Sequence record: MN850588.1
Reading direction: 5' to 3' (one strand)
DNA from: Escherichia phage sortregn
Length of the DNA: 38,200 nt
The position numbers and the translations under genes are program-made. The notes below the pieces were generated by a model. The model saw only the letters and a program-made list of their open reading frames with translations, made no database searches and was not told the DNA's origin. Below are positions 5,857-36,892 of the stretch, piece by piece (positions within the stretch are counted from its first letter, which is position 1; every line of letters starts with the position of its first letter).

Positions 5857-5858
5857 GC

Positions 5859-6825: not shown

Positions 6826-6830
6826 CACAA

Positions 6831-6850: not shown

Positions 6851-6854
6851 GCGT

Positions 6855-6876
6855 ATAGCACTTTTTGCTAAAGCAC
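6855..6876 (+). promoter_or_regulatory. conserved promoter-like element copy 2 (ATAGCACTTTTTGCTAAAGCAC)
   Basis: See copy 1; both followed by CAATTATC and CACCAAC-like segments. Confidence 0.35.
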
Positions 6877-6927
6877 TTTCAATTATCCTTTGTTATTATT
6901 CTTTCACACCAACACGAGGACGACGAA

Positions 6928-7152: not shown

Positions 7153-7411
7153 GACTTCGCGCCGGGAGTTATGGGAGGCGGCGCAAGCCGCCGAACTGGA
7201 CGGCATGATCAGCGCAGTCTCCCGCGTGTTCGGCAAGGAGGCGATCGCCGACATATCGATCGAGACGCCGGACGGCGAGATGTACCTGAACAACCCGGAC
7301 CCGCACCACTGGCGCGTCGTGCCTGGGACTAAAGGCGGAAAGAACGCTCTCAAAGACGCGATCGCCGACACCAAAAACCGGAAGCACCTCAAAGGGGGAT
7401 CTCGTGGGTAA
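7136..7411 (+). CDS. hypothetical protein
   Basis: 91 aa ORF overlapping neighbours. Confidence 0.4.
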   Translation: MVIARKTSRRELWEAAQAAELDGMISAVSRVFGKEAIADISIETPDGEMYLNNPDPHHWRVVPGTKGGKNALKDAIADTKNRKHLKGGSRG

Positions 7412-9011: not shown

Positions 9012-9040
9012 AAAAGGGGGCCAATCGGCCCCCTGTTTAC
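9010..9040. terminator. bidirectional terminator between convergent genes
   Basis: A6, GGGGGCC-AATC-GGCCCCC hairpin, then TGTTTAC. Confidence 0.65.
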
Positions 9041-9558: not shown

Positions 9559-10034
9559 TCGTCTGCAACCTTACCGCCAGCGGCGCGGAAGTAGCCCAGG
9601 AAGTCCTCGAAAGTCTCCGTTCGCTGACCGTATGGGGAGCCAGGCAGGGAGGCCCAGATGGTCCGGCATTTCTTCACGGCGTCCTTGATCCGGCCCGCGT
9701 CGATGTCGTCCAGCGCTTTACGCTCGCTGATCTGCTGGAGGGCGATCTGGTCCTGTGATGCCGGAGAGAAGTCCGGGAGTCCAAGCTGTTTTTTGTACAC
9801 GTCATAATAGCGGCTTAACAACTGGTAGCGCCCGGCGGCGGTTGAATTGATCCCCAGCTTCGGCAGCTTTACGAGGCGGTTCGGATGCTTCGAGTAGTCG
9901 CTGAACAGGGAGCCGCCCACGATCACGTCGTAGCCGTGATTGCGCGTCTGCTGGCGTCCGTTGTCTGTTCCCTCGCCTACCGCGATCGCGTCCAGGAATG
10001 CCTTACGCTGGGGCGTGACTTCAAATTTTGCCAT
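9555..10034 (-). CDS. endolysin, phage lambda R-like lytic transglycosylase
   Basis: 159 aa; QRKAFLDAIAVGEGTDNGRQQTRNHGYDVIVGG and GRYQLLSRYYD closely resemble lambda R. Confidence 0.9.
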   Translation of the reverse strand: MAKFEVTPQRKAFLDAIAVGEGTDNGRQQTRNHGYDVIVGGSLFSDYSKHPNRLVKLPKLGINSTAAGRYQLLSRYYDVYKKQLGLPDFSPASQDQIALQQISERKALDDIDAGRIKDAVKKCRTIWASLPGSPYGQRTETFEDFLGYFRAAGGKVADE

Positions 10035-10374
10035 CGGTCTGATCCTCGTGGTTAGTGTGCGCCGGAGTAGCGCGGATTTTTTTCAGGAATGGGATCTTTT
10101 CGCTGGCCCAGTCGAGCGCCGTCTCTACGCCCACGTAGCCCAGGAACACCGAAGCCAGATAGCCCCAGGTGCCATGATCGACCCCGAAGAATGATAAAAT
10201 ATTATTCATACCGAAAGCGACAGCAGCGCAGATCGCCCCGCCGCTGACAATATCGCGGAACGGGTGGCGCAATTGCCAGTGACGGAACACAGCCACCGAT
10301 GCCGCGATGAACGAATAACCTAACTCAACGCGGTATAGCTGGAACAATTGCCATAGCGTCGTATGCTCAGACAT
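10021..10374 (-). CDS. holin, lambda S-like
   Basis: ORF 10021..10440 (TTG) with start moved to ATG 10374; TM helices and ASVFLGYVGVE resemble lambda S; overlaps endolysin start. Confidence 0.7.
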   Translation of the reverse strand: MSEHTTLWQLFQLYRVELGYSFIAASVAVFRHWQLRHPFRDIVSGGAICAAVAFGMNNILSFFGVDHGTWGYLASVFLGYVGVETALDWASEKIPFLKKIRATPAHTNHEDQTDGKI

Positions 10375-10472
10375 TGGAGGGATCCCTTTTAACAAGTGAG
10401 TGAACGCTAAAAGGGTAGCATGTGGAATCAAGGGCCGCAAAGCCCCTTTTCAGATGAAAGGTTAAGTAATTG

Positions 10473-21543: not shown

Positions 21544-21765
21544 ATGGCCCGATCACTGATAGCAGTCAAAGACGCCGCCGGGGAAAAGTACCTCCTCCCG
21601 GTCCGTAACATCGTGAGCGTGACGGAGTTCCCGGACAACGAGCGCCGCGTGGAGGTCAAGGTCCGCGAGCCGATCAATGGCCCAGACGGGCGGATCTGTG
21701 GGTACGAGTTAAACCTGTATTACTCGCCAATGTCGATCGCACAATTCGAAGGGGCTTACGCGTGA
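21544..21765 (+). CDS. hypothetical protein
   Basis: 73 aa ORF, AAGGAG SD, first of four coupled small genes. Confidence 0.45.
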   Translation: MARSLIAVKDAAGEKYLLPVRNIVSVTEFPDNERRVEVKVREPINGPDGRICGYELNLYYSPMSIAQFEGAYA

Positions 21766-21932
21766 AACGCTACAAATGCACCGTAGGCGACAAGCGCGGG
21801 GCGTTCGGCGACTGTATGGAGCAGGACAAGGACGGGGACTGGATGCGCGTCTCCGACCATAATCGACACATTCAGGCACTGGAGCGCCAGATCGCGGCGC
21901 TAAAGGCCAAAACCAGAGAGACGAAACAATGA
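21762..21932 (+). CDS. possible small protein (56 aa, GTG start)
   Basis: Own reading; overlaps both neighbours (GTGA and ATGA); below ORF-track cutoff. Confidence 0.3.
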   Translation: MKRYKCTVGDKRGAFGDCMEQDKDGDWMRVSDHNRHIQALERQIAALKAKTRETKQ

Positions 21933-22297
21933 AAACGACCTACAACCTCGACCAGATGGCCCTCTTTTCTGCGATCGCCGCAGCGGTAGGAAAACAGGCG
22001 CCAGGGCTTCCGGCGGATAACCGCGCTAACGTGGTGATCGAGGCCGCAAACATGATCGTAGCGGCCTATGCGCTGACCGATGCCGAATACATGGCGAAGA
22101 AGGCAGAAGCGCCGATCGCCGTTGACCTCCAGCCGACGGCGGAACAGGTGGAGGCCGGGATCGCCTCGCTGTGGGACACCATCCCCGGCGCGATGGATCA
22201 GCTATGCCAGGACGTGGCAGAGGAGGAGCAGGGCGATCTATTCTCCGACGCTGTTACTTTCGTGTGGCAAGCCATGATCGGGAAGCGTCCACAATGA
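21929..22297 (+). CDS. hypothetical protein
   Basis: 122 aa ORF, ATGA coupling. Confidence 0.45.
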   Translation: MKTTYNLDQMALFSAIAAAVGKQAPGLPADNRANVVIEAANMIVAAYALTDAEYMAKKAEAPIAVDLQPTAEQVEAGIASLWDTIPGAMDQLCQDVAEEEQGDLFSDAVTFVWQAMIGKRPQ

Positions 22298-25591: not shown

Positions 25592-26047
25592 ATGGCGACC
25601 ATGCAGAAGATCCAGATCGTGAACCTGGCGTTACGCCGGGGCGGGATCGCGTCGTCTGCTGTTCTCATGCAACCAGATCCCCAGCAGTTAGCCGACGCGC
25701 TGGGCGATCTGGAGTCCCTTATGGCTTCGGTGATCAAGGACGGCGTGGATCTGCCGTACAACTTCACCACCAACCCGGACGGCATTCCCGACGGGAACGA
25801 GGACTCCGGTCTGGAACTTTGGACGCTGGAGGCGCTGGGCCTCAAGCTGGCACAAAGGATCCTGATCGATATGCAGCGCGACCTAACGCCGCAACAAAAC
25901 GCGGTCTTGCGCGAACAGTGGGACGTGGTGAAAGTGGCATTCTACAAAGTGCCATCACTCAAACAGCGTAACGATATGCCAACCGGGGAAGGAAATAATC
26001 CTTTCTGGGCTGACGATCGTTTCTACTATGACGGGACGGCGAAATGA
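25592..26047 (+). CDS. head-tail adaptor (P22 gp4-like)
   Basis: 151 aa; IVNLALRRGGIAS and DMPTGEGNNPF resemble P22 gp4; position after coat. Confidence 0.55.
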   Translation: MATMQKIQIVNLALRRGGIASSAVLMQPDPQQLADALGDLESLMASVIKDGVDLPYNFTTNPDGIPDGNEDSGLELWTLEALGLKLAQRILIDMQRDLTPQQNAVLREQWDVVKVAFYKVPSLKQRNDMPTGEGNNPFWADDRFYYDGTAK

Positions 26048-27480
26048 GGAACCCAGAGCGCGGGCAGGAGATTAACATCCCGTTACTGTACGGTGACGGG
26101 CGCAGTAATAAGACGCTGGACTGGACGACGCGACTCCCGGAGAACATGCTGGCGGTCGCCCGACAGGTCAAAGGCGGCAACGGCTACATGCGGATCATGC
26201 CGGGGATCGATAAGGTCGCCGACGTGGACGGGATCAGCCGTGGCTCGGAATGGAACACGGTCAAAATGGGACCTTCCCGCGTAATGGGTGGCAAGCTGTA
26301 CCTCTTAGGCTCGCCGCTGGCGGACGTGTCCGGCGTGGACCGTACTCCTATGGCGCATAGCCGCGACAGGATCGGCATTGTGACCGATAACCGCCTGTTA
26401 ATGGTCGGCTATGACGGGACTGTGACGAACTTTTCCAACTGGACGGGGGAGGACGCTCCGATCTACTCGTGGGGCGACATTAACGACGTTTGCCACCTCC
26501 GCCAGCGCTTCATCTTCTCCACGAAGGGGACGGACACCTTTTGGATCTCCGACCTGGAGGACGAGACGAAGCCGGACAAGATCGCCCCGGCGTATCGCGC
26601 TGAATCCATGCCGGACGGCATCGTGGCGATCCGCTCGTGGCATGACTATGTTGTGTGCTTCGGTAGCGCCTCGATCGAGTTCTTCGGCCTGACCGGGGAC
26701 GACCAGAACGTCTACGCGAACCAGCCCTCCTACACCGTCCAGGCCGGAACGCTGGGACGTGAAACCGTTTGCGCCTATCTGGACACGTTCGCGTTTATTA
26801 CGTCCCAATTCTCCGGGGAGTACACGATCGCCATCATGCAGCCCGGCGCGGCTCCGACGGAGATCGCCAGCGCGGAAGTTAAGAAGATGCTCGCCGGGTA
26901 CACCGTGGAGCAGCTACAGGCGGCGCGACTGGAGTCACTCAGCTATGAAACGCATAAATTGCTTATTGTCCACCTACCGGACAAAACGCTGGTTTACGAT
27001 CACCCCGTTAGCCAGGCCCAGGGCGTCCCGGTCTGGTCATTCCTCAAGACGGGGATCCTCTCGCTTAAGCCGTGGCGGGCGATTGACGTCATGAACGAGG
27101 GCAACCGGATCACCGTCGGCGACAAGACGGGGAAATGGCTCGGAGCGCTGAACAATACCCACTCCGCGCAGTACGGCGAGGACCAGGAGATCGTCCTGTA
27201 CACGCCGATCCTGTGGGCTGAAAATGCGATCCTCGCTGACTTTAGGATCGACGCTTCGACCGGGGGCGGCTCTACCACTTCCCGGATCTGGCTCTCCGCC
27301 ACCGAGGACGGGATCAACTACGGGCAGGAGCGAACGATCGCTTATAACACGCCTTACCGCTGGCTACAGAACGTTATCTTGCCCGTTGTGGGCCGCGTCC
27401 GTTCCGCCATCGGCTTTAAACTTCGCACCGTTGGCGCGACCCCGGCGACTCTCTCGCGGGCGCGTGTCCGTGTGACCTGA
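26044..27480 (+). CDS. tail hub protein (P22 gp10-like)
   Basis: 478 aa, ATGA overlap with gp4-like gene, size and position as P22 gp10. Confidence 0.55.
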   Translation: MRNPERGQEINIPLLYGDGRSNKTLDWTTRLPENMLAVARQVKGGNGYMRIMPGIDKVADVDGISRGSEWNTVKMGPSRVMGGKLYLLGSPLADVSGVDRTPMAHSRDRIGIVTDNRLLMVGYDGTVTNFSNWTGEDAPIYSWGDINDVCHLRQRFIFSTKGTDTFWISDLEDETKPDKIAPAYRAESMPDGIVAIRSWHDYVVCFGSASIEFFGLTGDDQNVYANQPSYTVQAGTLGRETVCAYLDTFAFITSQFSGEYTIAIMQPGAAPTEIASAEVKKMLAGYTVEQLQAARLESLSYETHKLLIVHLPDKTLVYDHPVSQAQGVPVWSFLKTGILSLKPWRAIDVMNEGNRITVGDKTGKWLGALNNTHSAQYGEDQEIVLYTPILWAENAILADFRIDASTGGGSTTSRIWLSATEDGINYGQERTIAYNTPYRWLQNVILPVVGRVRSAIGFKLRTVGATPATLSRARVRVT

Positions 27481-27484
27481 TGCA

Positions 27485-27495
27485 CTGGGGGGATC
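27485..27495 (+). repeat. CTGGGGGGATC 11-mer copy (immediately 5-prime of gp26-like ATG)
   Basis: Exact match ending one base before ATG 27496. Confidence 0.85.
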
Positions 27496-28092
27496 ATGGC
27501 AGTCGTTAACACTCTACAGCAGCTTAATACGGGCATTTTGCCACCCGGTACTTCTCAGGCGTTCCGGGATTATCTGGTCCGCCTGGGATCCTTCACGCAG
27601 GAAGCCGGGGACACCGCGAACAACGCCGAGGGATCGGCGTCTGACGCCTTCACGATCGCGGAACAGCAGAGGATCCGAAACGACCAGCAGGACAACGAGA
27701 TCGACAACCTGGAGGGGCAAGTCTCCAGCCTGGCGACCCGCGTCACCGAAGCGGAGAACCAGGTGGACACGCTGGCCCAGCAGGTCGAAGCGTTCGACAG
27801 TATCGTGATCAAGAACAACGTGGACACCCTCCAGATCATGGACGGGCCTCTCTCCATCGGGACGGAGATCCGCGTGAACAACGTCAAGGTAATGGGCGGA
27901 CGTCAAACTGGCTGGACCGCGCAGACCGGGACCACGAAGAAGGGCGGGATCGACGGTTCGGCGGCGTATGCCGTCGGCGGCGCATACAGCCAGGCAGAGG
28001 TCCAGGCACTGGCGGACGGCCTGGTGGAAGCCCGGCAGGTGATCGCCGCGCTGGTGGCGCTGGCGCTCTCTCACGGCTACGCGGGGACCTGA
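27496..28092 (+). CDS. tail needle protein (P22 gp26-like coiled coil)
   Basis: 198 aa with heptad-like segment NLEGQVSSLATRVTEAENQVDTLAQQVEAF; position as gp26. Confidence 0.5.
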   Translation: MAVVNTLQQLNTGILPPGTSQAFRDYLVRLGSFTQEAGDTANNAEGSASDAFTIAEQQRIRNDQQDNEIDNLEGQVSSLATRVTEAENQVDTLAQQVEAFDSIVIKNNVDTLQIMDGPLSIGTEIRVNNVKVMGGRQTGWTAQTGTTKKGGIDGSAAYAVGGAYSQAEVQALADGLVEARQVIAALVALALSHGYAGT

Positions 28093-28094: not shown

Positions 28095-28496
28095 GTGGAT
28101 TATGGCGAGATGATCGAACTTGTCCCGGACTCCGGCGTGGACCTCCTCCACGCCTGGGGCCTCCCGGAGTGGCCCCGCCACGTCGAGGCAAAGTATTTTC
28201 TGTGGGAAAGATGTTGCGTGTTCGCGATCATGGCGAACGACGAAGGCGGGATCGATGGACATATGGCAATGGATCCACCCATGCGCAGACGGTCCCGCGA
28301 GGCTTGCCAGGCGTTCCTCGCACACTGGGGCCACTATGCGATCCGCGTCCCGGTATTGATGGACCACCGTCACGCCCGGAACGTCGTCCGCAAAGTCGGA
28401 TTTGTTGAAAGTCCGCCCCAGCTTGTACAATTGGCGGACGGCAGAGAGGCGGAAATTATTTTCATGAGGAGAGGACCAAATGGGCGGAGCAATTAG
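28095..28496 (+). CDS. hypothetical protein (gp14 position)
   Basis: 133 aa ORF, GTG start at 28095 or ATG at 28110. Confidence 0.4.
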   Translation: MDYGEMIELVPDSGVDLLHAWGLPEWPRHVEAKYFLWERCCVFAIMANDEGGIDGHMAMDPPMRRRSREACQAFLAHWGHYAIRVPVLMDHRHARNVVRKVGFVESPPQLVQLADGREAEIIFMRRGPNGRSN

Positions 28497-29142
28497 CGGG
28501 ATCGGTGGAGCCGTCTCGTCCGTTTTAGGCGGTATCGGGACGAATAAGGCCCTTAAGCAGCAGCAGAAGGCCACCGACAAACAAATGGACTACCAGCGCG
28601 AGCTACAGGCGCAACAGGCCGAGTGGTTAAGTCCTTTCCGTGAGGCAGGGACGAACGCTATCCCCGGCCTGACTGCGATCGCGGGCCAGCCGATTGACCG
28701 GGAGGCGTTACTCTCGGACTACTACGGCGGGAACGAGTTCAAGATGGCGGAAGAACAGGCCCGACGCTCTCAGCTTGCCAGCGCGGAAGCGACCGGGGGC
28801 CTCGGATCCACGGCGACCGGGAACAGCCTCGCAGCCATCGCGCCGACGCTGGGCCAGAACTACCTGAACGCGCAGCAAGCGCAGCAGCAGGATATGTATA
28901 ACCAGCTTTTAGGCCTGGTTAACGTGGGCTTGTCCGGCGCTGGCGCTCAGTCCGCAGCGGCTACCGGGACCACTAACGCACTGACGGCGCTCGCCGGGCA
29001 GAAAGGCCAAATTCTGGGCCAGAAAGCGGCCTTGCCGTGGAATACCGCAGCAACGGCTAACAATCAGATGGCGCAGGGCGCGGCGCAGGATATGAACACG
29101 TTTACTAACATGTTCGGCGGCATGTTCGGAGGGATGATCTAA
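28480..29142 (+). CDS. ejection protein (P22 gp7-like)
   Basis: 220 aa Gly/Ala/Gln-rich, GGAISGIGGAVSS N-terminus, GAGGA SD, position as gp7. Confidence 0.55.
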   Translation: MGGAISGIGGAVSSVLGGIGTNKALKQQQKATDKQMDYQRELQAQQAEWLSPFREAGTNAIPGLTAIAGQPIDREALLSDYYGGNEFKMAEEQARRSQLASAEATGGLGSTATGNSLAAIAPTLGQNYLNAQQAQQQDMYNQLLGLVNVGLSGAGAQSAAATGTTNALTALAGQKGQILGQKAALPWNTAATANNQMAQGAAQDMNTFTNMFGGMFGGMI

Positions 29143-30464
29143 TGGCTCAATTATTAGGCGGCGGCGGTTCGGATCCGGGCGATCTGTGGAATAACCTCCA
29201 GAACATCCAGGCCGCAGGGACTAACACGCTCCAGAACATCGGGCAGATTCAGGCTAACACGGCGCAGCAGATCCAGAACCGACAGCAGGGGATGGCGATG
29301 CAAGCCGCAGCAGCCCAGCGCGACCAGATGGCGGCGTTTAATCAGGACTGGCAAGCAGCCCAGGGCGACCCGTCCAAGATTTCGGAACTGGCCTACAAAT
29401 ACCCGACCCAGATCGAAGCGCTCCAGAAGCGTCTCGGACTGGTGGATGATATTCGCCGCCAGCAGGGATCCCAGCTTGCAAGCCAGGCCGACGTCGCGAT
29501 CTCGCAGGGGCCGCAGATGGCCCAGCAATTCGTCCAGCAGAACGCCCCGGCGCTCCAGGCGCTGGGAATTGATCCGCAGGTGGCCTACCAGACGGCGGCG
29601 CAGGACCCGGAGGCGTTTAAACGCTCCGTTCAAGCGCTCCACCTGGCGAGCAATACCAGCAAGGATCAACTGGACTACTCGAAAGAGATCATGAAGAACC
29701 AGACCACGATCAGGGGCCAGGACCTCGACGCGGCGGCGAAGGCGGCAGACCGTAACCTCCGTTACATCGGGCTACAGAATGACCGCCTGAACACGCAGAT
29801 CGCGCAGGAAGGGAACGACATCAAACGCGCCCAGATGCAGCAGACGCTACAGAAGGCGCAACAGGACAGCCTGAACACGAAACGCGATTTTCTCCAGACC
29901 TACGACAAGACGGTGGCCCCGATCGACACGTCGCTGGAACTGGCGAAACAGCTATTAAACCGTAAGGATCTGGGCTTCGTGACCGGGATTAACGGCTACG
30001 GAAACCGCTTCTGGTCGGCGGCTACTGGCGGCGGCGATAACACGGCGGAGATCATGCAGACCCTGGATCAGCTTAAGAGCCAGGCGCGACTCGCCGGGAT
30101 GGAGTCCTTGCGCGGGACTGGCTCCGTCACCGAGAAGGAAGGCGAGGCGGCGGCTAATGCCCTGCTGAACGCTAACCCCGGACAAATGAGCGAGGATCAG
30201 CTTAAGGCGGTGATCCAGCGTTATGTCTCCAGCCTGGAGAAGGGCAAGGCAGCGCTGGAGAAGAACCAGGGCGGGCGAGTCCAGGCCTACCGCCAGGAGA
30301 TCGCACGAGACGACGCCAAACAGGAAGCAGTCGGGCAATTGACCGCTGGGGGGATCCCCGCGCAGAACGCGCAAGCGGCTATTAATTACCTGATGCAGAA
30401 CCCTACCCCTAGCGTTAAGGCGCAATTTAAGGAAAAATACGGTTTCTTACCGGAGGGGCTTTAA
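29142..30464 (+). CDS. ejection protein (P22 gp20-like)
   Basis: 440 aa Q-rich, overlapping stop/start with gp7-like gene. Confidence 0.55.
   Translation: MAQLLGGGGSDPGDLWNNLQNIQAAGTNTLQNIGQIQANTAQQIQNRQQGMAMQAAAAQRDQMAAFNQDWQAAQGDPSKISELAYKYPTQIEALQKRLGLVDDIRRQQGSQLASQADVAISQGPQMAQQFVQQNAPALQALGIDPQVAYQTAAQDPEAFKRSVQALHLASNTSKDQLDYSKEIMKNQTTIRGQDLDAAAKAADRNLRYIGLQNDRLNTQIAQEGNDIKRAQMQQTLQKAQQDSLNTKRDFLQTYDKTVAPIDTSLELAKQLLNRKDLGFVTGINGYGNRFWSAATGGGDNTAEIMQTLDQLKSQARLAGMESLRGTGSVTEKEGEAAANALLNANPGQMSEDQLKAVIQRYVSSLEKGKAALEKNQGGRVQAYRQEIARDDAKQEAVGQLTAGGIPAQNAQAAINYLMQNPTPSVKAQFKEKYGFLPEGL
30346..30356 (+). repeat. CTGGGGGGATC 11-mer copy
   Basis: Exact match; frame-checked against gp20-like residues A402-G-G-I405. 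Confidence 0.85.
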
Positions 30465-33400
30465 ATGGCGAACATCTTCGACCAATTTGATCAGAACATG
30501 CCGAAAAATGCGACGGCGCTCCCTAATCAGATTCCAAACCAACCCGGATCCACTGGATCCGGTTATGCTGATCTGGTGGAGAGTGCCGGGGCGAAGTGGG
30601 GGATCCCTGCTGGCCTCATGACCCAATTAGTGGGGAAAGAGTCCAGCGGCAACCCGTCCGCCGTCTCCTCGAAAGGCGCAACCGGGCTAACTCAGGTTAT
30701 GCGCGGGACCGCCGAGGATATGGGCTACAACTGGGACGCGCTGAAAAACGATCCAGCATTACAGGCAGACGCGGGGGCGCAGTACCTTTCCCGCATGTAT
30801 CAGAGGTATGGAGACTGGGGGACCGCTCTCCAGGCTTACCATGACGGCCCCGGCAACGTAGACAAACAACTGGCGGGACAGGCAGAACCTGGCCCGGAGG
30901 GGCGTCAATATGTGGATGATCGGTTTAATCAATGGACTGGGCGAGGCGCTGGCGACAATGGCAGCGGCGAACCTACTCAATACGCAACCAGCGCACGATC
31001 TCCGAGTGCTGGCGGTAATGTTTTCGACCAATTCGGGGACTACCAACCCCCAGCAGCAGCCGCAGCCGACGGAGCCGGACCAACCGGAGCCGATCAACAA
31101 GTCGCAGCCGTCGCCGCTGGCAATGCACCTAATCAAGCGGGATCTGATGGCGCACAAGGGGCGGCAGCGCCGAACGGTAACGGAGTCCAGAGCGGAGCTA
31201 ATCAGCCCGGACAAACCGATCCAAACGAAGAAGCCGCCCGAAACTGGGAACAGTTAGGCCAGACCGTTCTCCATTCGCTGGATCAGGGCGCTCGCGGCGT
31301 GGCTCAGACGGGGATCGACCTGCTGAACACGCCGATCTCGCTGGCGAACATGATCTCCAATGCCGTGACCGATGCGGGCAAATGGGCCGGAGTCGTGGAC
31401 CAGGACACCCAAGCGCCGACCATCACGCCTGGGGGGATCCCTGGTCTCGCGCCTACCGACAAATACGCGCAGATCGGGACCGTGATCGGGGATATGCTCG
31501 CGCCACTGCCTGGCCCTCGTAAGGCTCAGGCGGCGACCGAACTCCTCGGACTGGTCCGTGAATCGCCGGACGTGGCTACCTTCTCGACTCGCCTCGCTGA
31601 TGCCGTGCAGAACTGGATCGCGGCTCCGGCGGCTCGTGCCGTTCCCGGCGCGGTGGCCGCTGGACGTGGGGACCCGGAGGAGACGCTGACGAACATCGCG
31701 TTAGCTCCCGCTGGCGAGGCTGTGGGCCGCGCTGTTATCGGTGGCGCTGGTAGGCTGTGGAACGCTCTCCGGGGCGAAGCTGGGGCCGCTGGTGGCGCTG
31801 GTGCAGATGCAGCGGCAGACGCCGCAAGATCCACCCAGGCGTCCGAGGCGGGCATTTCCGACGCGGTGGCTCGTGACGCGAGCAAGTTCCGACTGACGCC
31901 GGATCGCACTGTGCAGGGCGCGAACGGTGAAACCCTCCGCGCTTCTGACGATGCGATCGATCTGGCGAACATGGCGGACGTGGACAAGAAGGTCCTCAAG
32001 ACGGCCCGCGATCTGGGACTGGAGGACCAACTGACCCCGGCGGCTTATGCGCGTGACACCAATTTCCGCAGCACGATCCAGCAGCTTGTAAGCCGTAAAG
32101 GTTCCAACCTGGAGACGCAGCAGCTAAACGGGATCGCCCGCTTAGGCGAGAAAGCCGACGAGCTGATCGACAGCATGAGCAGCATGAACGCGCAGACCAT
32201 TGATCAGGCGTTTACCGCCCGCACTCGTGCAGTGATCGACGGACTGGGCGACGAGGCGGAGAAGGCTTATAACGCGATCGCGGCGAAGATCCCGCGTAAC
32301 GCCGAAGTAAGGCCGGACAGTACCGTGGACTATCTGACGGCGAAAGCCGACGAGTTAGGCGGCGACGCGTACCTGTCAACGGCAGAGCGTAAGGCGCTGG
32401 ACTGGATGGCTCCGAAGCCTGGCAAGGTGGACCCTGTGACGGGCCTCCCGGATCAGGACGTGGCGACGATCCCGACTTACTCCCGACTGGACACGCTTCG
32501 TAAGCAGGTAGGCCAGGCGCTCAATAAAAAATCCGGCCCGTTCAAGGACGAGGAGACGGGAGCGCTTAAACAGCTTTACGCCCGCCTGACGGACGACCAG
32601 GAGAAAGTCGCGGCCCAGTACGGCGCGGCGGACGACTGGAACGTGGCTAAACAGCTTGTTAAACGCCGTAAGGACCTGGAGACGATCGCCCAGGACGCGC
32701 TCGGAAAGAACCTTACCGACTCGATCACCGGGAAAGTGCAGAACGCGATCCTGAATCTGGGTAAAAAGGGCGGCAGCGCGAAGGACTGGGACCGTCTGAT
32801 GGCTGCAACCCCGGAGAGCCTGAAACAGGACGTAGTGGCTAACGCGCTGGAGCGTACCCTGGGCGCACGTAGCGCCCGCGATACCTTCGCGATCCCCGGC
32901 TTCGTGGACTGGTACAAGACCGCCCAGGCAAACGGGACGTTAGGCAACGTCATGAAGCATTTACCCCGCGATCAGCGTGTGCGCCTGATGCAGGTTTACC
33001 GCGTGGCGAACGCCATCGACCGGGCGAAACGCTTTACCACGACGACGGGATCGATCTCCGACTTCGTGAAGCGCTTCGACGATCCTAGCGCTGGCGGCGT
33101 CTTGTCCAAGCTGTACGGCGCGGCGGGCTGGCTGGGTAAACATGCGGCGGCGTTCTATGCAGCAGGTCCGGCGGGTAATGCGGCCCTCTCAGCGGCTCAG
33201 GCAGCGCGGGGCGCTCGCGTCCCTCGTTCGGTGCTGGCGGACAATTTGCTTTCGTCCACGAACTTCTCCAAACTTATGCAAGCCGCAGCCGCGCAGAGTT
33301 CCGGGAAGCTAACCCCAGCGGGCCGGACGTTCGTCCGCGAGGCCGAGGAAGCGGCGGCAAACTCCCCAGAGTGGCGGGCCTTGTATGAGGCATTCACCCC

Positions 33401-33491
33401 GGAGGAGAAAGCCGCAGTAAACCGGGCCGGGATCGTCGGATTCTTCTCCGGCGCTGGCGGCAGGGCAGCAGCGAACGAGCAGCAGCAATAA
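30465..33491 (+). CDS. ejection protein with N-terminal lytic transglycosylase (SLT) domain (gp16 position)
   Basis: 1008 aa; GKESSGNPSAVSSKGATGLTQVM with catalytic ES and downstream AYHDGPGN typical of SLT domain; Ala/Gly-rich linkers. Confidence 0.7.
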   Translation: MANIFDQFDQNMPKNATALPNQIPNQPGSTGSGYADLVESAGAKWGIPAGLMTQLVGKESSGNPSAVSSKGATGLTQVMRGTAEDMGYNWDALKNDPALQADAGAQYLSRMYQRYGDWGTALQAYHDGPGNVDKQLAGQAEPGPEGRQYVDDRFNQWTGRGAGDNGSGEPTQYATSARSPSAGGNVFDQFGDYQPPAAAAADGAGPTGADQQVAAVAAGNAPNQAGSDGAQGAAAPNGNGVQSGANQPGQTDPNEEAARNWEQLGQTVLHSLDQGARGVAQTGIDLLNTPISLANMISNAVTDAGKWAGVVDQDTQAPTITPGGIPGLAPTDKYAQIGTVIGDMLAPLPGPRKAQAATELLGLVRESPDVATFSTRLADAVQNWIAAPAARAVPGAVAAGRGDPEETLTNIALAPAGEAVGRAVIGGAGRLWNALRGEAGAAGGAGADAAADAARSTQASEAGISDAVARDASKFRLTPDRTVQGANGETLRASDDAIDLANMADVDKKVLKTARDLGLEDQLTPAAYARDTNFRSTIQQLVSRKGSNLETQQLNGIARLGEKADELIDSMSSMNAQTIDQAFTARTRAVIDGLGDEAEKAYNAIAAKIPRNAEVRPDSTVDYLTAKADELGGDAYLSTAERKALDWMAPKPGKVDPVTGLPDQDVATIPTYSRLDTLRKQVGQALNKKSGPFKDEETGALKQLYARLTDDQEKVAAQYGAADDWNVAKQLVKRRKDLETIAQDALGKNLTDSITGKVQNAILNLGKKGGSAKDWDRLMAATPESLKQDVVANALERTLGARSARDTFAIPGFVDWYKTAQANGTLGNVMKHLPRDQRVRLMQVYRVANAIDRAKRFTTTTGSISDFVKRFDDPSAGGVLSKLYGAAGWLGKHAAAFYAAGPAGNAALSAAQAARGARVPRSVLADNLLSSTNFSKLMQAAAAQSSGKLTPAGRTFVREAEEAAANSPEWRALYEAFTPEEKAAVNRAGIVGFFSGAGGRAAANEQQQ
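31429..31439 (+). repeat. CTGGGGGGATC 11-mer copy
   Basis: Exact match; frame-checked against SLT ejection protein residues P322-G-G-I325. Confidence 0.85.
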
Positions 33492-33496
33492 CAAAC

Positions 33497-33519
33497 GGGG
33501 GCCAGGTGGCCCCCTTCTC
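33497..33519 (+). terminator. hairpin (weak terminator/attenuator) before tailspike
   Basis: GGGGGCC-AGGT-GGCCCCC followed by TTCTC, short U-tract. Confidence 0.4.
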
Positions 33520-33531
33520 ATGGAGCGCATT

Positions 33532-35925
33532 ATGTCCGACTTAGACACGCTTTCGGCGGTTTCTATGCCGTCCGTCCCATTCCTCCGCATCGATCGCTTT
33601 GCGGCGGTGGCGGACGGTGGGCTTTACGTGGGCCAACCCGACACGGACCCGACGCAGCCGGAGAACCAGGTCCCGGTCTACATCCTGAACGAGGACGGAA
33701 CCCTGACCCAGATCGAGCAGCCTGTGAAGATCGGGATCGCGGGCTATCCGGTTTATAACGGGCAAGTCGTCAAGGTCCTGACGCAGCCGGGGACCTCTCT
33801 CGACGTCCGCGACCGGAACAACGTCCAGATGTTCTACTTCGACAACCTGACGAAGTACGACCCGGAACAGATGTGGAAACTACTCCAGAGTTCGACGGGC
33901 TGGGAGTTCGTGGGGACCACTTACGGCAACGTGAAACAGGCCATTCAGGGCTATATCACGCCGTGGAACTTCGTCGGCAAGCCGGAATATGCGACCGAGA
34001 CGGAAGCGATTCAGGCCATGTTTGACTATGCGAAGGCGAATAACCTCCCGATCCGCGCTTTCAACTGGGAAGGCACGACCGCCGGGATCGTCACCGCAGA
34101 GAACATCACGATCGTCGGCGGGATCTGGAACCTGGTCGGCAATAACGCAAAGTTCACTAATTGCGTGGTTTTTGATGGGATCTGGCGTCGCCGCTCTATC
34201 TGGTCAAAAGGGACTTACTTCGAGCGTTGCCGCTTCGAACAATGCCGCATCCTTCACGCGTCGGACGACGTGCTGATCCTTAACTCCAAGTTCTCCGGCA
34301 AGGTAGGCAGGAACGTGGCCTCCATCGTCATGCAGGGGAACCAGGTCGAAGGCGACAACAACAAGGACTATTTCGGGCGTTTACGCGTCGAGAACTGCGA
34401 GTTTAATGATATTTCTGGGGGGATCTTCCAGCAGGGCGGGCACTTCAAAATCACCCGCATGATCTTGCGTAACCTGACGTTTACGAACCTGGACTCCGAC
34501 GCGATCGAGCTTAACGTGGTGAATGATGGCTCCTTTACCGAAGGATGCACGATCGAGAACATCGAGATCTATAACTCTAACGCCACGCTTGCGAACTCCA
34601 ACTTAGGGATCGGGATCGGTGTGGCTGGTGCTGGCCCGTACTCGTGGGACGCGCCGGAAACCAACTACGCGAAAAACTTCGTGATCCGCAACGTGACCGC
34701 CGTCGGCGTTCGCCAGTGTGTCCACGTCGAGGTCGGATCCGACTTCGTGATCGAGAACGTGAACGTAAACCCGGACGCCAACAAGTCGATCGGGACTGGC
34801 CTGATCGTCTCCGGCGTTTATATCGCTGGTTCGAAGAACTTCACGATCAACGGCGTAAGCGGAACCCCTGTTCCGTCCGCGACTGTGCCGATCACGGACA
34901 TTCGTATGATCTGCCTGGTGCCGGGACCTACTGACCAATCCGCCCAGCAGTACAATACGCTTTGCCGTGACTACACGATCCGAAACGTGGACGCAAAGGG
35001 CGCATGGGTGCAACTGTGGGTAGACGCTTACCCCGGCTATGGTTCGATCCAGCCACACAGCAACCACGCGACGATCGAAAACGTGGACTGTTATCGCTTC
35101 TCGTGCTTCGGCGTGGGGACCGTGACGACGCTCCGAAACATCACTTGCACCACGTCCGACTGTTTAGGCGATACCTCCACCGGGGGCGGCTATAAAAACC
35201 AGGCGGGATCCGGTACGCTGTTATATATCTTCACTAAATCGGTGCTGAATATTGACGGCTTCTACTCGGAGACTCCGGGCGAGATCTACCGCAAGCCGCG
35301 CTACATGTACACCAATGTGAAGAACTGCAACATTCAGGTAGATCAGGGCGCTAACTTCGACGGACGCGTGGGCGCTCAACTGACGCCGATCACGAAGGCT
35401 TACGCGCCGCAGATCACGGCCCACGGTGGATATGGGAACTTCTTCCCGCGTGGTCGGGAGTTCGACGTGGGCGATCAGGTCTTTGTCTACGACTACGGCA
35501 GCAACGACCCGGCTAATGGTCCTGGGGGGATTGTGGCGCTCAAGGCTTACGTGGTGACGGGCTTCGGCGCGTACTACCCGGCGAACACTGGCGCGTCCAC
35601 CCTCCGCGCAGCAGCAGCGGGCGCTAAACGCGTTTACTGTGCGCTGACGCCGACCGGGACCAGTACCGGATCGCCGTGGCTGTACACTGACACGCTGACC
35701 GCCGGGACGCGTATCAAGATCACGACCAGCGTCGGACAGGAAACCGTGACGATCACCCGCGCACCGTTCCAGCCGCTGAACGATAACGACAACACGGACA
35801 ACCCGGCGAACACGTCGTTACCTATCGCGATCGAGTTCACCCCGGCGCTACAGGGTAGCGTGGCGGCGAACGCTCGCTTTACGATGGCTTACCCCATCAC
35901 CACGCGACCGCCGATCTCCGCATAA
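33532..35925 (+). CDS. tailspike protein, P22-type head-binding N-domain plus beta-helix receptor-binding domain
   Basis: ORF 33520..35925, second ATG 33532 preferred (GGAG SD); YVGQPDTDPTQPENQVPVYILNEDG resembles P22 gp9 head-binding domain; Asn/Gly/Val-rich body. Confidence 0.8.
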   Translation: MSDLDTLSAVSMPSVPFLRIDRFAAVADGGLYVGQPDTDPTQPENQVPVYILNEDGTLTQIEQPVKIGIAGYPVYNGQVVKVLTQPGTSLDVRDRNNVQMFYFDNLTKYDPEQMWKLLQSSTGWEFVGTTYGNVKQAIQGYITPWNFVGKPEYATETEAIQAMFDYAKANNLPIRAFNWEGTTAGIVTAENITIVGGIWNLVGNNAKFTNCVVFDGIWRRRSIWSKGTYFERCRFEQCRILHASDDVLILNSKFSGKVGRNVASIVMQGNQVEGDNNKDYFGRLRVENCEFNDISGGIFQQGGHFKITRMILRNLTFTNLDSDAIELNVVNDGSFTEGCTIENIEIYNSNATLANSNLGIGIGVAGAGPYSWDAPETNYAKNFVIRNVTAVGVRQCVHVEVGSDFVIENVNVNPDANKSIGTGLIVSGVYIAGSKNFTINGVSGTPVPSATVPITDIRMICLVPGPTDQSAQQYNTLCRDYTIRNVDAKGAWVQLWVDAYPGYGSIQPHSNHATIENVDCYRFSCFGVGTVTTLRNITCTTSDCLGDTSTGGGYKNQAGSGTLLYIFTKSVLNIDGFYSETPGEIYRKPRYMYTNVKNCNIQVDQGANFDGRVGAQLTPITKAYAPQITAHGGYGNFFPRGREFDVGDQVFVYDYGSNDPANGPGGIVALKAYVVTGFGAYYPANTGASTLRAAAAGAKRVYCALTPTGTSTGSPWLYTDTLTAGTRIKITTSVGQETVTITRAPFQPLNDNDNTDNPANTSLPIAIEFTPALQGSVAANARFTMAYPITTRPPISA
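34415..34425 (+). repeat. CTGGGGGGATC 11-mer copy
   Basis: Exact match; frame-checked against tailspike residues S299-G-G-I302. Confidence 0.85.
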
Positions 35926-35930
35926 AGCAA

Positions 35931-35957
35931 AGGGGCCAATTAAGGCCCCTTTTTTTG
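35931..35957. terminator. bidirectional intrinsic terminator between tailspike and leftward operon
   Basis: AGGGGCC-AATTA-GGCCCCT hairpin followed by T7; T-rich on the other strand too. Confidence 0.7.
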
Positions 35958-35979: not shown

Positions 35980-36177
35980 TTAGCGCGGCAGGTCGAGCCG
36001 AGCCTGTAAAACGCCCGCGTAAGCCTTCATCACGTCCAACTGTACGACGAGGAGACGCTGTTCCGTAGGGTTAACTTTCGCGAACCCCGGCGAGTTAAAA
36101 ATGAATTGCGACAGTGCCGTGATCTTGCCTTCGAGATCGGCCTTTTCGATGCGGACGCGTTCTAAAAAGTCAGTCAT
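35980..36177 (-). CDS. hypothetical protein, downstream partner of HTH gene
   Basis: ORF 35980..36195 (TTG) with start moved to ATG 36177 after AGGAG; 8-nt overlap with HTH gene. Confidence 0.4.
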   Translation of the reverse strand: MTDFLERVRIEKADLEGKITALSQFIFNSPGFAKVNPTEQRLLVVQLDVMKAYAGVLQARLDLPR

Positions 36178-36388
36178 GGTTAACTCCTGTTTCAATCAGA
36201 TCCGCGATCGAGACGTCGAGCGCCTTCGCGATGCGGCATAGGTTAGTAACAGATGGCAATTCATGCCCGTTTTCGTAGCGGCTCAACTGATGCGGGATCA
36301 TGCCGATTCGCTCCGCTAATTCTTTTTGCTGGATGCCTTTCGCTTCGCGGACTTGCTTCACGAGGCAAACGGCTTTTAATTCCGCCAT
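36170..36388 (-). CDS. XRE/Cro-family helix-turn-helix transcriptional regulator
   Basis: ORF 36170..36403 with start moved to ATG 36388 after AAGGAG; QQKELAERIGMIPHQLSRYENG HTH signature. Confidence 0.7.
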   Translation of the reverse strand: MAELKAVCLVKQVREAKGIQQKELAERIGMIPHQLSRYENGHELPSVTNLCRIAKALDVSIADLIETGVNHD

Positions 36389-36451: not shown

Positions 36452-36892
36452 TTATTCTGGGTTAAGCCCTTCACCGTTAACCAGATGCCACTCTTTATGA
36501 TGCTTCTCGCAGAGCCAGCGCACATCTAACGGGCGATCGTAGTCGTCATGATGTCCCACTACCTTCTCCGCCCCGCAGACCTCACACGGCCCCCTGTGGA
36601 GTTCTCCAGTCTTTAGCGCGTAATAGACCATGCTATGAGCGCGGCGCTTCTTTGGATGCCTGGCATGATAGGCTGATTTTGTAGCGTTCGATCGCTCCCG
36701 GCCTTCTCCATGCTGATATTTTTTAGCGTGACAGATGATCCTCTCTTTTCTTTCTGGATCGCTGTGGTAATAACTCCGGTAATTCTTGTTCTTGCACTGG
36801 CGACAGCGTGGATCCCTTCCGTCCTTCCGGCGCTTGTCCTTGTGGAACTCCTCCGGCGGCTTTGATTCGTGGCAAATTGTGCATTGTTTCAT
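36452..36892 (-). CDS. HNH endonuclease
   Basis: 146 aa; CEVCGAEKVVGHHDDYDRPLDVRWLCEKHH HNH motif with flanking cysteines. Confidence 0.75.
   Translation of the reverse strand: MKQCTICHESKPPEEFHKDKRRKDGRDPRCRQCKNKNYRSYYHSDPERKERIICHAKKYQHGEGRERSNATKSAYHARHPKKRRAHSMVYYALKTGELHRGPCEVCGAEKVVGHHDDYDRPLDVRWLCEKHHKEWHLVNGEGLNPE

What the first reader, a model, noticed from the sequence alone, without database searches (positions are those of the whole stretch)
30465..35925. Enlarged SLT-domain ejection protein and mosaic tailspike
The gp16-position protein is 1008 aa with an N-terminal lytic transglycosylase domain not present in P22 gp16 as I recall it, suggesting a peptidoglycan-degrading ejection protein. 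The tailspike joins a P22-type head-binding N-domain to a different beta-helix-like receptor-binding body, indicating a swapped host-range determinant.
Basis: partly seen in the sequence, partly recalled or inferred. Interest (0 to 1): 0.4.

Follow-up and report, generated by a model that had tools for sequence, protein, structure and literature searches.

The report
Cell-wall-cutting ejection protein and colanidase tailspike
These two adjacent genes of a known wastewater coliphage encode an injected protein with a cell-wall-cutting domain and a tailspike that joins a P22-type anchor to a slime-degrading (colanic acid) body; both are real, but both are already deposited, annotated and of well-known kinds.

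Summary
ORF 30465-33491 (1008 aa) has a genuine N-terminal SLT lytic-transglycosylase domain (aa 33-160, catalytic E59). A roughly 100-aa low-complexity linker joins it to a P22-gp16-type ejection-protein body. It sits in the P22 order gp4-gp10-gp26-(gp14 slot)-gp7-gp20-gp16. ORF 33520-35925 (801 aa; the real start is probably 33532) has a P22 head-binding domain (50% identical to P22 gp9 1-113). Its beta-helix body is not the P22 endorhamnosidase but is homologous to Phi92 gp150 'colanidase' (PDB 6E0V).

None of this is new. The window is almost certainly Escherichia phage sortregn. Over this region it differs at 9 of 5461 nt from Salmonella phage Lumpael, where the genes are annotated 'transglycosylase/DNA transfer protein' and 'tailspike colanidase'. 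SLT-gp16 fusions are common: they occur in 31 of the 150 best family representatives, in many enterobacterial prophages, and in the Lederbergvirus IME10. The anchor-plus-colanidase tailspike architecture is shared end to end by all Murrayvirus and Sortsnevirus relatives, so the 'swap' relative to P22 is old. Within the genus the whole tailspike gene behaves as a divergent cassette.

The likely mechanism is T7-gp16-like local peptidoglycan cutting during DNA ejection, together with colanic-acid binding and degradation for adsorption. Interest is low.

The parts
30465..33491 (+). Ejection ('DNA transfer') protein of the P22 gp16 type with an N-terminal lytic transglycosylase domain, 1008 aa
   Evidence: ORF. 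phrog_770 'DNA transfer protein' matches aa 139-960 at E=3.4e-113, and P22 gp16 hits the same profile at E=2e-266. Annotated transglycosylase / DNA transfer protein in Lumpael.
30561..30944 (+). SLT (GH23, family-1 lytic transglycosylase) domain, aa 33-160. Catalytic Glu59 is the codon at 30639-30641. Motifs: E59-S60, G74-L-T-Q77, A124-Y-H-D-G128.
   Evidence: Pfam PF01464 E=2.7e-22. Alignment to MltE and Slt70. Motif positions. AF2 pLDDT 85-95. Foldseek hits to MltE, Slt, MltD and T7 gp16 (7K5C, 7EYB), prob 1.0.
30471..30488 (+). N-terminal short motif NIFDQF (aa 3-8), first copy
   Evidence: F5 is nearly invariant in the 33-sequence alignment. The motif is present in distant homologues.
31017..31034 (+). 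Second copy of the motif, NVFDQF (aa 185-190), just after the SLT domain
   Evidence: F187 is invariant and N185 nearly invariant. An 11-nt exact DNA repeat, TTCGACCAATT, lies at 30477 and 31023.
30945..31256 (+). Low-complexity Ala/Gly/Gln/Pro-rich linker (aa 161-264), predicted disordered
   Evidence: Composition: 44 of 50 residues are AGPQSTN in aa 201-250. AF2 pLDDT 23-35.
31257..31505 (+). Segment aa 265-347, the only part directly alignable to P22 gp16 (aa 65-134)
   Evidence: BLASTP E=0.002. A bridge exists through Shimwellia prophage protein P0051, which is 86% identical to P22 gp16 72-182 and aligns with window aa 34-347 at E=2e-52.
31977..33488 (+). All-alpha C-terminal body (aa 505-1008), shared with the SLT-less gp16 of Lederbergvirus Kapi1
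   Evidence: AF2 pLDDT about 75-90, all helices. Kapi1 matches aa 500-991 at 30% identity. 830 cluster representatives at E<=1e-3.
33497..33514 (+). GC-rich hairpin between the two genes (GGGGGCC-AGGT-GGCCCCC); function unknown
   Evidence: MFE -17.2 kcal/mol, but z=-1.45 only.
33520..35925 (+). Tailspike, 801 aa as the ORF (probably 797 aa from ATG 33532)
   Evidence: phrog_6117 'colanic acid degradation' E=2e-152. Annotated 'tailspike colanidase' in Lumpael. Start-codon argument.
33532..33870 (+). P22-type head-binding (tail-hub anchoring) domain, aa 5-117
   Evidence: PF09008 E=5e-34. 50% identical to P22 gp9 1-113. Foldseek 1LKT TM 0.86.
33877..35481 (+). Neck plus right-handed beta-helix body, aa 120-654, of the Phi92 gp150 / NST1-type colanidase family. 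Invariant acidic/polar residues are D327, E330, N332 (34498-34515) and Q399, H402, E404 (34714-34731).
   Evidence: PDB 6E0V E=1.3e-35. AF2 mean pLDDT 83.8 with beta-strand ladder. Foldseek 6E0V E=7e-33, TMt 0.64. Invariant columns in 35 sequences. WcaM-like core aa 278-447 at E=5e-21.
35482..35922 (+). C-terminal beta-rich domain, aa 655-801, conserved in the clade; function not assigned
   Evidence: phrog_6117 covers residues up to 796. Alignments. AF2 pLDDT mostly 75-95.
35929..35956 (.). Palindromic intrinsic terminator, AAAGGGGCC-AATTAA-GGCCCCTTTTTTT, between the convergent tailspike and the minus-strand early genes
   Evidence: MFE -19 kcal/mol, z=-3.6 on both strands. 27-28 nt are identical in ST231, IME_EC2 and Sortsne.
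28480..30464 (+). Partner ejection proteins: gp7-like (28480-29142) and gp20-like (29142-30464)
   Evidence: PF25688 P22_gp7 E=1e-21 and PF16928 Inj_translocase E=2e-12. phrog_598 and phrog_2534.
25592..28092 (+). Tail parts that the tailspike anchor docks on or near: gp4-like (25592-26047), gp10-like (26044-27480) and needle gp26-like (27496-28092)
   Evidence: PF11650 E=9e-25. PF11134 E=1.5e-135. phrog_1219 tail needle E=6e-46.

Best explanation
These are two virion proteins of a Murrayvirus podophage with a P22-like tail and ejection module.

(1) Ejection protein. The 1008-aa protein is the gp16-type ejection protein. It is packaged in the head with gp7- and gp20-like proteins and expelled through the tail before the DNA. 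A roughly 100-aa disordered linker tethers its N-terminal SLT domain, which locally cleaves peptidoglycan glycan strands with E59 as the catalytic acid. This opens the sacculus for the trans-periplasmic conduit, which the all-alpha C-terminal body helps to build. The proposed mechanism is the one shown experimentally for the N-terminal domain of T7 gp16.

(2) Tailspike. The trimeric tailspike docks on the gp4/gp10 tail hub through its P22-type head-binding domain. Its gp150-like beta-helix binds and depolymerises a surface exopolysaccharide, most likely colanic acid, to bring the needle to the outer membrane.

Shown here: domain identities, conserved active-site motifs, folds and synteny. Inferred: virion location, enzymatic activity, substrate and timing.
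For: SLT domain. Pfam E=2.7e-22. The E59-S60, GLTQ and AYHDG motifs are present and E59 aligns with the MltE catalytic Glu. The AF2 domain is confident and matches MltE, Slt, MltD and T7 gp16-N (7K5C, 7EYB).

gp16 identity. phrog_770 E=3e-113, the same profile as P22 gp16. The gene order is gp4-gp10-gp26-x-gp7-gp20-gp16. Prophage protein P0051 links the window protein to P22 gp16.

Not the lysis enzyme. A separate holin-endolysin-spanin cassette lies at 9037-10440 on the minus strand.

Precedent. T7 gp16-N transglycosylase is needed for genome internalisation when peptidoglycan is highly cross-linked (review PMC8954989).

Tailspike. PF09008 E=5e-34, and 50% identity to the P22 gp9 N-domain. 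The body matches 6E0V 'colanidase tailspike gp150' by sequence (E=1e-35) and by fold (E=7e-33). It is 33% identical over aa 122-793 to the J8-65 tailspike, which is 87% identical to the biochemically characterised NST1 colanidase (PMC4179555). The core also resembles host WcaM from the colanic acid gene cluster.

Host evidence. A tailspike differing by only 2 aa is carried by Lumpael, isolated on Salmonella Enteritidis, while sortregn was isolated on O-antigen-less E. coli K-12 (the K-12 O-antigen status is from general knowledge). This fits a receptor common to both hosts, such as colanic acid.
Against: No experiment exists on this protein or on any Murrayvirus homologue that I could find.

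Direct similarity to P22 gp16 is weak (E=0.002 over 83 aa). No classical transmembrane helix is predicted in the body (maximum Kyte-Doolittle 19-residue mean 1.07).

Colanic-acid specificity rests on 24-35% identity to the reference enzymes. Full-length homologues occur in phages of Stutzerimonas, Kosakonia and Klebsiella. Congeneric tailspike bodies are only 33-42% identical, so specificities within the family may differ.

Whether D327, E330 and E404 are catalytic was not verified against a published active site.

The identification of the window as sortregn rests on length, GC content and nearest relative only.
Confidence: 0.78

Rival explanations
1. The tailspike body is a depolymerase for a polysaccharide other than colanic acid (for example ECA, an O-antigen or another exopolysaccharide). 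On this view the 'colanidase' label is annotation carried over from distant homologues.
For: Identity to the J8-65/NST1-type colanidase is only 33%, and only 24% (structure-based) to gp150. Full-length homologues are found in Stutzerimonas phage STP9 (37.7%) and Kosakonia phage Kc166B (45%). Body identity among Murrayvirus and Sortsnevirus tailspikes is only 33-42%, while the flanking genes are about 90% identical. That pattern is typical of specificity-diversifying receptor-binding proteins.
Against: E. coli K-12 lacks O-antigen and group capsules (general knowledge), yet sortregn, Sortsne and sortsyn were all isolated on MG1655. An almost identical spike works on Salmonella. The motifs are shared with gp150 (DAIELNVV is identical), and the core resembles WcaM.
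Confidence: 0.25
2. The SLT domain serves at the end of infection, in lysis or virion release, or is an inactive structural remnant, rather than acting during entry.
For: No experimental evidence places this protein in the virion. In T7, gp16 transglycosylase activity is dispensable under standard conditions.
Against: The phage has its own holin-endolysin-spanin cassette. The domain is fused in-frame to the ejection-protein body in the ejection-protein operon. The catalytic motifs are nearly invariant across 33 homologues down to 26% identity (K58, E59, G62, Q77, Y125, G128), which argues for retained activity. The same domain sits at the N-terminus in 31 independent family representatives.
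Confidence: 0.07
3. A recent recombination at the head-binding/body junction grafted a foreign receptor-binding body onto a resident P22-type anchor. This is the classic P22-like tailspike swap, and the strong form of the first reader's reading.
For: The body family (PF27800 in precomputed annotations) is found behind other anchors. It follows PF18668 (TSP1/gp66 N-domain) in large myoviruses and a phiKMV-type adaptor in Bonnellvirus. Module shuffling therefore did occur at some time.
Against: All relatives share the same architecture end to end. Against ST231, nucleotide identity drops from about 90% to about 60% at the start of the tailspike gene (33500) and recovers only at about 36200. The head-binding domain is itself only about 54% identical. 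The unit of recent exchange or divergence is therefore the whole gene plus the small downstream ORF, not the body alone.
Confidence: 0.1

Closest known systems
Salmonella phage Lumpael gp43 (AZF88790, 'transglycosylase' / 'DNA transfer protein') and gp42 (AZF88789, 'tailspike colanidase'), genus Murrayvirus; probably the sortregn record MN850588 itself
   Same: Nine nucleotide differences over 5461 nt. One amino-acid change in the ejection protein (A453V) and two in the tailspike (R264G, K559N). Gene order and annotations are the same.
   Different: The reported isolation host differs: Salmonella Enteritidis for Lumpael, E. coli K-12 for sortregn. The window is about 3 kb shorter than the Lumpael genome.
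T7 gp16, an internal core / ejectosome protein with an N-terminal lytic transglycosylase domain
   Same: The SLT domain sits at the extreme N-terminus of the largest ejection protein. Its fold matches 7K5C and 7EYB. The proposed role is local peptidoglycan cleavage during genome delivery.
   Different: The bodies show no detectable sequence or fold similarity. The window protein belongs to the P22 gp16 profile family (phrog_770). It also has a long disordered linker in place of T7's 'molecular tape'.
P22 gp16 (609 aa) and other P22-like gp16 proteins: Kapi1 gp58, and the unannotated gene-16 ORF of IME10
   Same: Same position after gp7 and gp20, and the same PHROG profile. Kapi1 shares the C-terminal body at 30% identity. 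IME10 shares the SLT domain at 65% identity.
   Different: P22 and Kapi1 lack the SLT domain. IME10 has the SLT domain but a P22-type body (35% to P22 gp16 143-598). The family is a mosaic of at least two body types, each with or without SLT.
Phi92 gp150 colanidase tailspike (PDB 6E0V) and the NST1 / J8-65 colanidase
   Same: Homologous beta-helix body: E=1e-35 by sequence, Foldseek E=7e-33, TMt 0.64. The GDAIELNVV and GIGIGVAG-GPY motifs are conserved. The window body is 33% identical to J8-65 over 670 aa.
   Different: The N-terminal anchors differ: P22 head-binding domain here, myovirus or phiKMV-type adaptors there. There is an extra C-terminal domain, aa 655-801, beyond the phmmer-aligned part of gp150. 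Identity is only 24-33%, so the substrate is not proven.
P22 gp9 / Sf6 gp14 tailspikes
   Same: The head-binding domain is 49-50% identical, with TM 0.75-0.86 to solved structures. Both are trimeric beta-helix tailspikes by overall design.
   Different: The receptor-binding body is not homologous at the sequence level to the P22 endorhamnosidase or the Sf6 body.

Membership tests
Family-1 lytic transglycosylase (SLT, Pfam PF01464 / GH23) | Profile score above the curated threshold | tested here: met
   79 bits against a gathering cut-off of 21.3, E=2.7e-22, aa 37-140.
Family-1 lytic transglycosylase (SLT, Pfam PF01464 / GH23) | Catalytic Glu in the E-S motif, plus the G-L-x-Q and A-Y-x-x-G motifs | tested here: met
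   E59-S60 aligns with the 'IES' of MltE. GLTQ lies at 74-77 and AYHDG at 124-128. These residues are nearly invariant in 33 homologues.
Family-1 lytic transglycosylase (SLT, Pfam PF01464 / GH23) | Goose-lysozyme-like alpha-helical fold | tested here: met
   AF2 pLDDT 85-95 for aa 33-160. Foldseek hits MltE, Slt, MltD, MltF, phiKZ gp144 and T7 gp16 at prob 1.0. E-values are only 0.02-0.1 because the query is a 1008-aa, mostly low-confidence model.
Family-1 lytic transglycosylase (SLT, Pfam PF01464 / GH23) | Muralytic activity producing 1,6-anhydroMurNAc | not testable with these tools
   Needs a zymogram or HPLC of muropeptides.
P22 gp16-type ejection (E) protein | Homology to P22 gp16 | tested here: met
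   phrog_770 E=3.4e-113 (aa 139-960), and P22 gp16 hits the same profile at E=2e-266. Direct BLASTP is weak (E=0.002). The link is bridged by P0051.
P22 gp16-type ejection (E) protein | Position in the P22 order, directly after the gp7 and gp20 homologues and downstream of gp4, gp10 and gp26 | tested here: met
P22 gp16-type ejection (E) protein | Packaged in the virion and released before the DNA | not testable with these tools
   Needs virion proteomics and ejection assays.
P22-type tailspike head-binding domain (PF09008) | Profile match and fold of the N-terminal approximately 110 aa | tested here: met
   117 bits against a cut-off of 24, E=5e-34. 50% identity to P22 gp9. TM 0.86 to 1LKT.
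P22-type tailspike head-binding domain (PF09008) | Docking partners gp4 and gp10 encoded in the same genome | tested here: met
   PF11650 P22_Tail-4 E=9e-25. PF11134 E=1.5e-135.
P22 endorhamnosidase body (P22 gp9 C-terminal part) | Sequence homology beyond the head-binding domain | tested here: not met
   No significant alignment after aa 117; the best is E=0.12.
Phi92 gp150 / NST1-type colanidase tailspike body | Sequence and fold homology of the beta-helix | tested here: met
   6E0V E=1.3e-35 over aa 120-654. Foldseek E=7e-33, TMt 0.64. phrog_6117 E=2e-152. J8-65 E=3e-78.
Phi92 gp150 / NST1-type colanidase tailspike body | Conserved catalytic carboxylates | tested here: inconclusive
   D327, E330 and E404 are invariant in 35 homologues, and the DAIELNVV motif is identical in gp150. 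I had no published active-site assignment to compare against.
Phi92 gp150 / NST1-type colanidase tailspike body | Degrades colanic acid | not testable with these tools
   Needs an enzyme assay on purified colanic acid, or halo and adsorption tests on wca mutants.
WcaM (host colanic acid cluster protein, NCBIfam TIGR04004 / NF007517) | Equivalog-level score | tested here: not met
   75 bits against cut-offs of about 800. Only the core, aa 278-447, aligns. It is a related fold or core, not a WcaM. The 'colanic acid biosynthesis protein wcaM' labels on the ST231 and IME_EC2 tailspikes are misnomers.

The most novel reading that the evidence does not exclude
A short motif, N-[PVIM]-F-[AD]-Q-[FIL], brackets the SLT domain. 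In the window it is NIFDQF at aa 3-8 and NVFDQF at aa 185-190. It is conserved in homologues as low as 34-41% identical, and it appears as two tandem NPFAQI/L copies after the SLT domain in IME10-type proteins. It could be a previously undescribed short linear motif of ejection proteins. Possible roles are a docking, packaging or processing signal that positions or releases the peptidoglycan-cutting domain, rather than a by-product of how the domain was inserted.
Probability: 0.15. Interest if true: 0.4.

Novelty: already known. Interest (0 to 1): 0.15.

Why it matters
It matters little for discovery. The genes are deposited and correctly named, and both architectures are textbook examples of phage modularity.

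Three modest points of value remain:

1. [quoted passage not shown] This needs qualifying. An SLT domain heads the gene-16 protein of the Lederbergvirus IME10, of many enterobacterial prophages, and of about one fifth of the representatives of this body family.

2. Near-identical colanidase-type tailspikes occur on phages isolated from E. coli K-12 and from Salmonella Enteritidis. This suggests a simple route to cross-genus host range through a shared exopolysaccharide, which is relevant to phage-cocktail design.

3. Several database annotations in this clade are missing or misleading: the unannotated IME10 gene 16, the 'WcaM biosynthesis protein' tailspikes, and the split Sortsne gene.

Tried and rejected
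- Direct BLASTP of the 1008-aa protein against P22 gp16 gave only E=0.002 over 83 aa. Homology had to be established through the shared PHROG profile and a bridging prophage protein.

- I looked for transmembrane helices in the gp16-type body. None reached the usual hydropathy threshold.

- Foldseek of the ejection-protein model against the PDB found nothing for the C-terminal body. BFVD gave only uncharacterised phage proteins.

- I tested whether long SLT-less family members carry another Pfam hydrolase domain. None of the 9 did. One BFVD hit is, however, named Peptidase M15B.

- I considered that the SLT domain is the phage endolysin. This was rejected because a separate lysis cassette exists.

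- I considered a recent domain-junction swap in the tailspike. This was rejected by sliding-window identity.

- I looked for long DNA direct repeats flanking the SLT module as an insertion scar. Only an 11-nt repeat encoding the FDQF motif was found.

- The intergenic hairpin at 33497-33514 is not statistically unusual (z=-1.45).

- Literature searches found no experimental work on Murrayvirus ejection proteins or tailspikes. The Phi92 paper (PMC3457257) is not held.

Full report
**What the window is.** The 38,200-bp window has about 59% GC. Over 30465-35925 it differs at only 9 of 5461 nt from Salmonella phage Lumpael (MK125141 / NC_048113, genus Murrayvirus). A published table lists Escherichia phage sortregn (MN850588) as 38,200 bp, 59.3% GC, Murrayvirus, with Lumpael as its closest relative and E. 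coli K-12 MG1655 as its isolation host (PMC7552041). The window is therefore almost certainly sortregn. That record did not appear among the hits in the searchable phage collection, so this remains an inference.

**Checking the observation.**
- The upstream genes follow the P22 virion order. They are gp4-like (PF11650), gp10-like (PF11134, E=1.5e-135), a needle (phrog_1219), a 133-aa ORF in the gp14 slot, gp7-like (PF25688) and gp20-like (PF16928). The portal is also P22-type.
- The 1008-aa protein has a clear SLT domain: PF01464, aa 37-140, E=2.7e-22, 79 bits against a cut-off of 21.3.
- P22 gp16, taken from BK000583, has no Pfam hit and does not align to that region.
- The tailspike has PF09008 Head_binding at aa 5-117 (E=5e-34) and is 50% identical to P22 gp9 residues 1-113. 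No significant similarity follows.

**The ejection protein in detail.**
- *Active site.* The SLT domain has the family-1 motifs E59-S60, G74-L-T-Q77 and A124-Y-H-D-G128. E59 aligns to the catalytic Glu of MltE. These residues are nearly invariant in an alignment of 33 homologues down to 26% identity.
- *Structure.* AlphaFold2 gives a confident SLT domain (aa 33-160, pLDDT 85-95). Residues 161-504 are low-confidence, and their first part (aa 161-264) is an Ala/Gly/Gln/Pro-rich linker. A moderately confident all-alpha body covers aa 505-1000. Foldseek against the PDB returns only lytic transglycosylases, including the T7 gp16 N-domain in the ejectosome tunnel (7K5C) and in the core (7EYB). Nothing matches the body.
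- *Homology to P22 gp16.* This rests on three lines. Both proteins hit phrog_770 (E=3e-113 here, 2e-266 for P22 gp16). The synteny matches. A Shimwellia prophage protein (P0051, 836 aa) bridges the two: its SLT region and following segment align with window aa 34-347 (E=2e-52), and its aa 211-321 are 86% identical to P22 gp16 72-182.
- *Body relatives.* The C-terminal body (aa 500-991) is 30% identical to the SLT-less gp16 of Lederbergvirus Kapi1.

**How common the fusion is.**
- The word-indexed protein search returned about 70 homologues with PF01464. Many are prophage proteins of Klebsiella aerogenes, Enterobacter and Shimwellia that NCBI names 'lytic transglycosylase domain-containing protein'.
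- The Lederbergvirus IME10 has an unannotated 797-aa ORF directly after gene 20 (L007:4992-7385). It carries SLT (E=3e-25) and a body 35% identical to P22 gp16 143-598 (E=2e-77).
- A full HMMER scan with the body alone (aa 500-1008) found 830 50%-identity cluster representatives at E<=1e-3. Of the best 150, 31 carry an N-terminal SLT domain, always within the first ~175 residues. This was detected with an HMM I built from the family.
- PHROGs already holds a fusion family, phrog_21143, which both the window protein and P22 gp16 hit in different parts.
[quoted passage not shown] That holds for P22 and Sf6 but not for the group as a whole. It is consistent with the known extreme mosaicism of P22-like E-proteins (bioRxiv 10.1101/2023.08.15.553423).

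**The tailspike in detail.**
- *Body family.* Beyond the anchor, aa 120-654 are homologous to Phi92 gp150 (PDB 6E0V, deposited as 'colanidase tailspike'; E=1.3e-35). The AlphaFold2 model has mean pLDDT 83.8, pTM 0.76 and a long beta-strand ladder. Its top Foldseek hit is 6E0V (E=7e-33, TMt 0.64). The N-domain matches P22 and Sf6 head-binding structures at TM 0.75-0.86.
- *Link to a characterised enzyme.* The protein matches phrog_6117 'colanic acid degradation' end to end (E=2e-152). It is 33% identical over aa 122-793 to the J8-65 tailspike. That tailspike is 87% identical to the experimentally characterised NST1 colanidase (PMC4179555).
- *Conserved residues.* The core, aa 278-447, also resembles host WcaM (E=5e-21), far below the equivalog cut-off. 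D327, E330, N332, Q399, H402 and E404 are invariant in 35 homologues.
- *Other anchors.* The same body family occurs behind TSP1/gp66-type N-domains in large myoviruses and a phiKMV-type adaptor in Bonnellvirus. This is ordinary tailspike modularity.

**Is it a 'swap'?**
- Relative to P22, yes. However, the tailspikes of Sortsne, ST231 and IME_EC2 align with the window's from end to end at 39-48% identity. So do about 20 metagenomic homologues, a Kosakonia phage protein and a Stutzerimonas phage. The architecture is therefore old and clade-wide.
- Sliding-window nucleotide identity to ST231 is 81-98% (mostly 87-98%) through the ejection-protein gene. It falls to about 60% at 33500, the start of the tailspike gene, and to 35-55% in the body. 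It returns to over 90% only at about 36200, after the small minus-strand ORF 35980-36195.
- The head-binding domain itself is only about 54% identical between congeners. The unit of recent replacement or rapid divergence is thus the whole tailspike gene, not the receptor-binding body alone.

**Mechanism.** The best-supported account has two parts.
- The E-protein is packaged and expelled ahead of the DNA. Its tethered SLT domain cuts glycan strands locally so that the gp7/gp20/gp16 conduit can cross the sacculus. This is as proposed, and partly shown, for T7 gp16.
- The tailspike docks on gp4/gp10 and binds and degrades colanic acid.

Three observations support this. A separate holin-endolysin-spanin cassette at 9037-10440 (minus strand) argues against a lysis role for the SLT domain. 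The tailspikes of sortregn (E. coli K-12 host) and Lumpael (Salmonella Enteritidis host) differ by only R264G and K559N. That fits a receptor common to both genera. That colanic acid is such a shared polymer, and that K-12 lacks O-antigen, comes from general knowledge and was not tested here. Virion location, activity, substrate and timing all remain inferred.

**Verdict.** The finding is ordinary and already annotated in public records. The residual points of interest are minor:
- the qualification of the 'not in P22-like phages' statement;
- a conserved NxF[AD]QF motif on both sides of the SLT domain;
- several annotation gaps in related records.

Noticed in passing
window 30471-30488 and 31017-31034: A short peptide motif, NIFDQF / NVFDQF, occurs at the extreme N-terminus and again just after the SLT domain. 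F5 is nearly invariant, F187 invariant and N185 nearly invariant in 33 homologues. Distant homologues keep it in forms such as NPFAQF, NMFGQY and NKFASQF. IME10-type proteins have two NPFAQI/L copies after the SLT domain. Kapi1's SLT-less gp16 instead starts with a different duplicated motif, LPEGFVLDNQP and LPDGFVLDSQP (differing at two positions). The function is unknown.
   Followed up: partly
window 33520-33534: The annotated tailspike start (ATG 33520) is probably wrong. ATG 33532 has a GGAG Shine-Dalgarno sequence 6 nt upstream, the P22 and Sf6 tailspike N-termini align to it, and the database cluster representative is 797 aa.
   Followed up: partly
window 35929-35956: A near-perfect palindromic GC-rich stem flanked by an A-run and a T-run lies immediately after the tailspike stop, between convergent transcription units. 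It has z=-3.6 on both strands, and 27-28 nt are identical in ST231, IME_EC2 and Sortsne even though the flanking tailspike genes are highly diverged.
   Followed up: partly
window 36452-36892 (minus strand): A 146-aa Cys/His-rich ORF matches phage endonucleases (phrog_2340, E=1e-38). Neither Lumpael record annotates it (gap at 21758-22291), and its IME_EC2 homologue is labelled 'baseplate wedge protein'.
   Followed up: partly
L007 (IME10, NC_019501) 4992-7385: The gene-16 position of this Lederbergvirus holds an unannotated 797-aa ORF with an N-terminal SLT domain and a P22-gp16-like body. RefSeq annotation stops at gene 20.
   Followed up: yes
L005 (Sortsne MK651787) 4001-7048: The Sortsne homologue of the 1008-aa protein aligns as one uninterrupted tblastn piece (aa 1-991, 80% identity). 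GenBank nevertheless annotates only a 738-aa 'putative lytic transglycosylase' plus small overlapping hypothetical ORFs, so the gene is probably mis-started or split in the annotation.
   Followed up: no
L003 7055-9277 (ST231) and L004 7064-9304 (IME_EC2): Tailspikes homologous end to end to the window's are labelled 'colanic acid biosynthesis protein WcaM'. The WcaM similarity covers only the beta-helix core and is far below the equivalog cut-off, so the labels are misnomers.
   Followed up: partly
window 35980-36195 (minus strand): A small 71-aa ORF (Pfam crAss001_48-related, E=4e-17) lies inside the same low-identity cassette as the tailspike when compared with ST231 and IME_EC2. It may travel with the tailspike.
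   Followed up: no
window 28095-28496: The 133-aa ORF in the slot of P22 gene 14 has a GTG start and overlaps gp7-like by 17 nt. It has no Pfam hit and belongs to phrog_17333 rather than to the P22 gp14 family phrog_651. It is a non-homologous occupant of the position.
   Followed up: no
window 1-25000: Only 68% of this stretch aligns to Lumpael (98.5% identity, 4 pieces), and the window is about 3 kb shorter than Lumpael. The early/replication region therefore differs by indels, while the virion module is nearly identical.
   Followed up: no
BFVD hit A0A6J5KPX8: An uncultured-phage protein whose fold matches this ejection-protein model is named 'Peptidase M15B'. This hints that the body can be fused to a different class of peptidoglycan hydrolase.
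   Followed up: no
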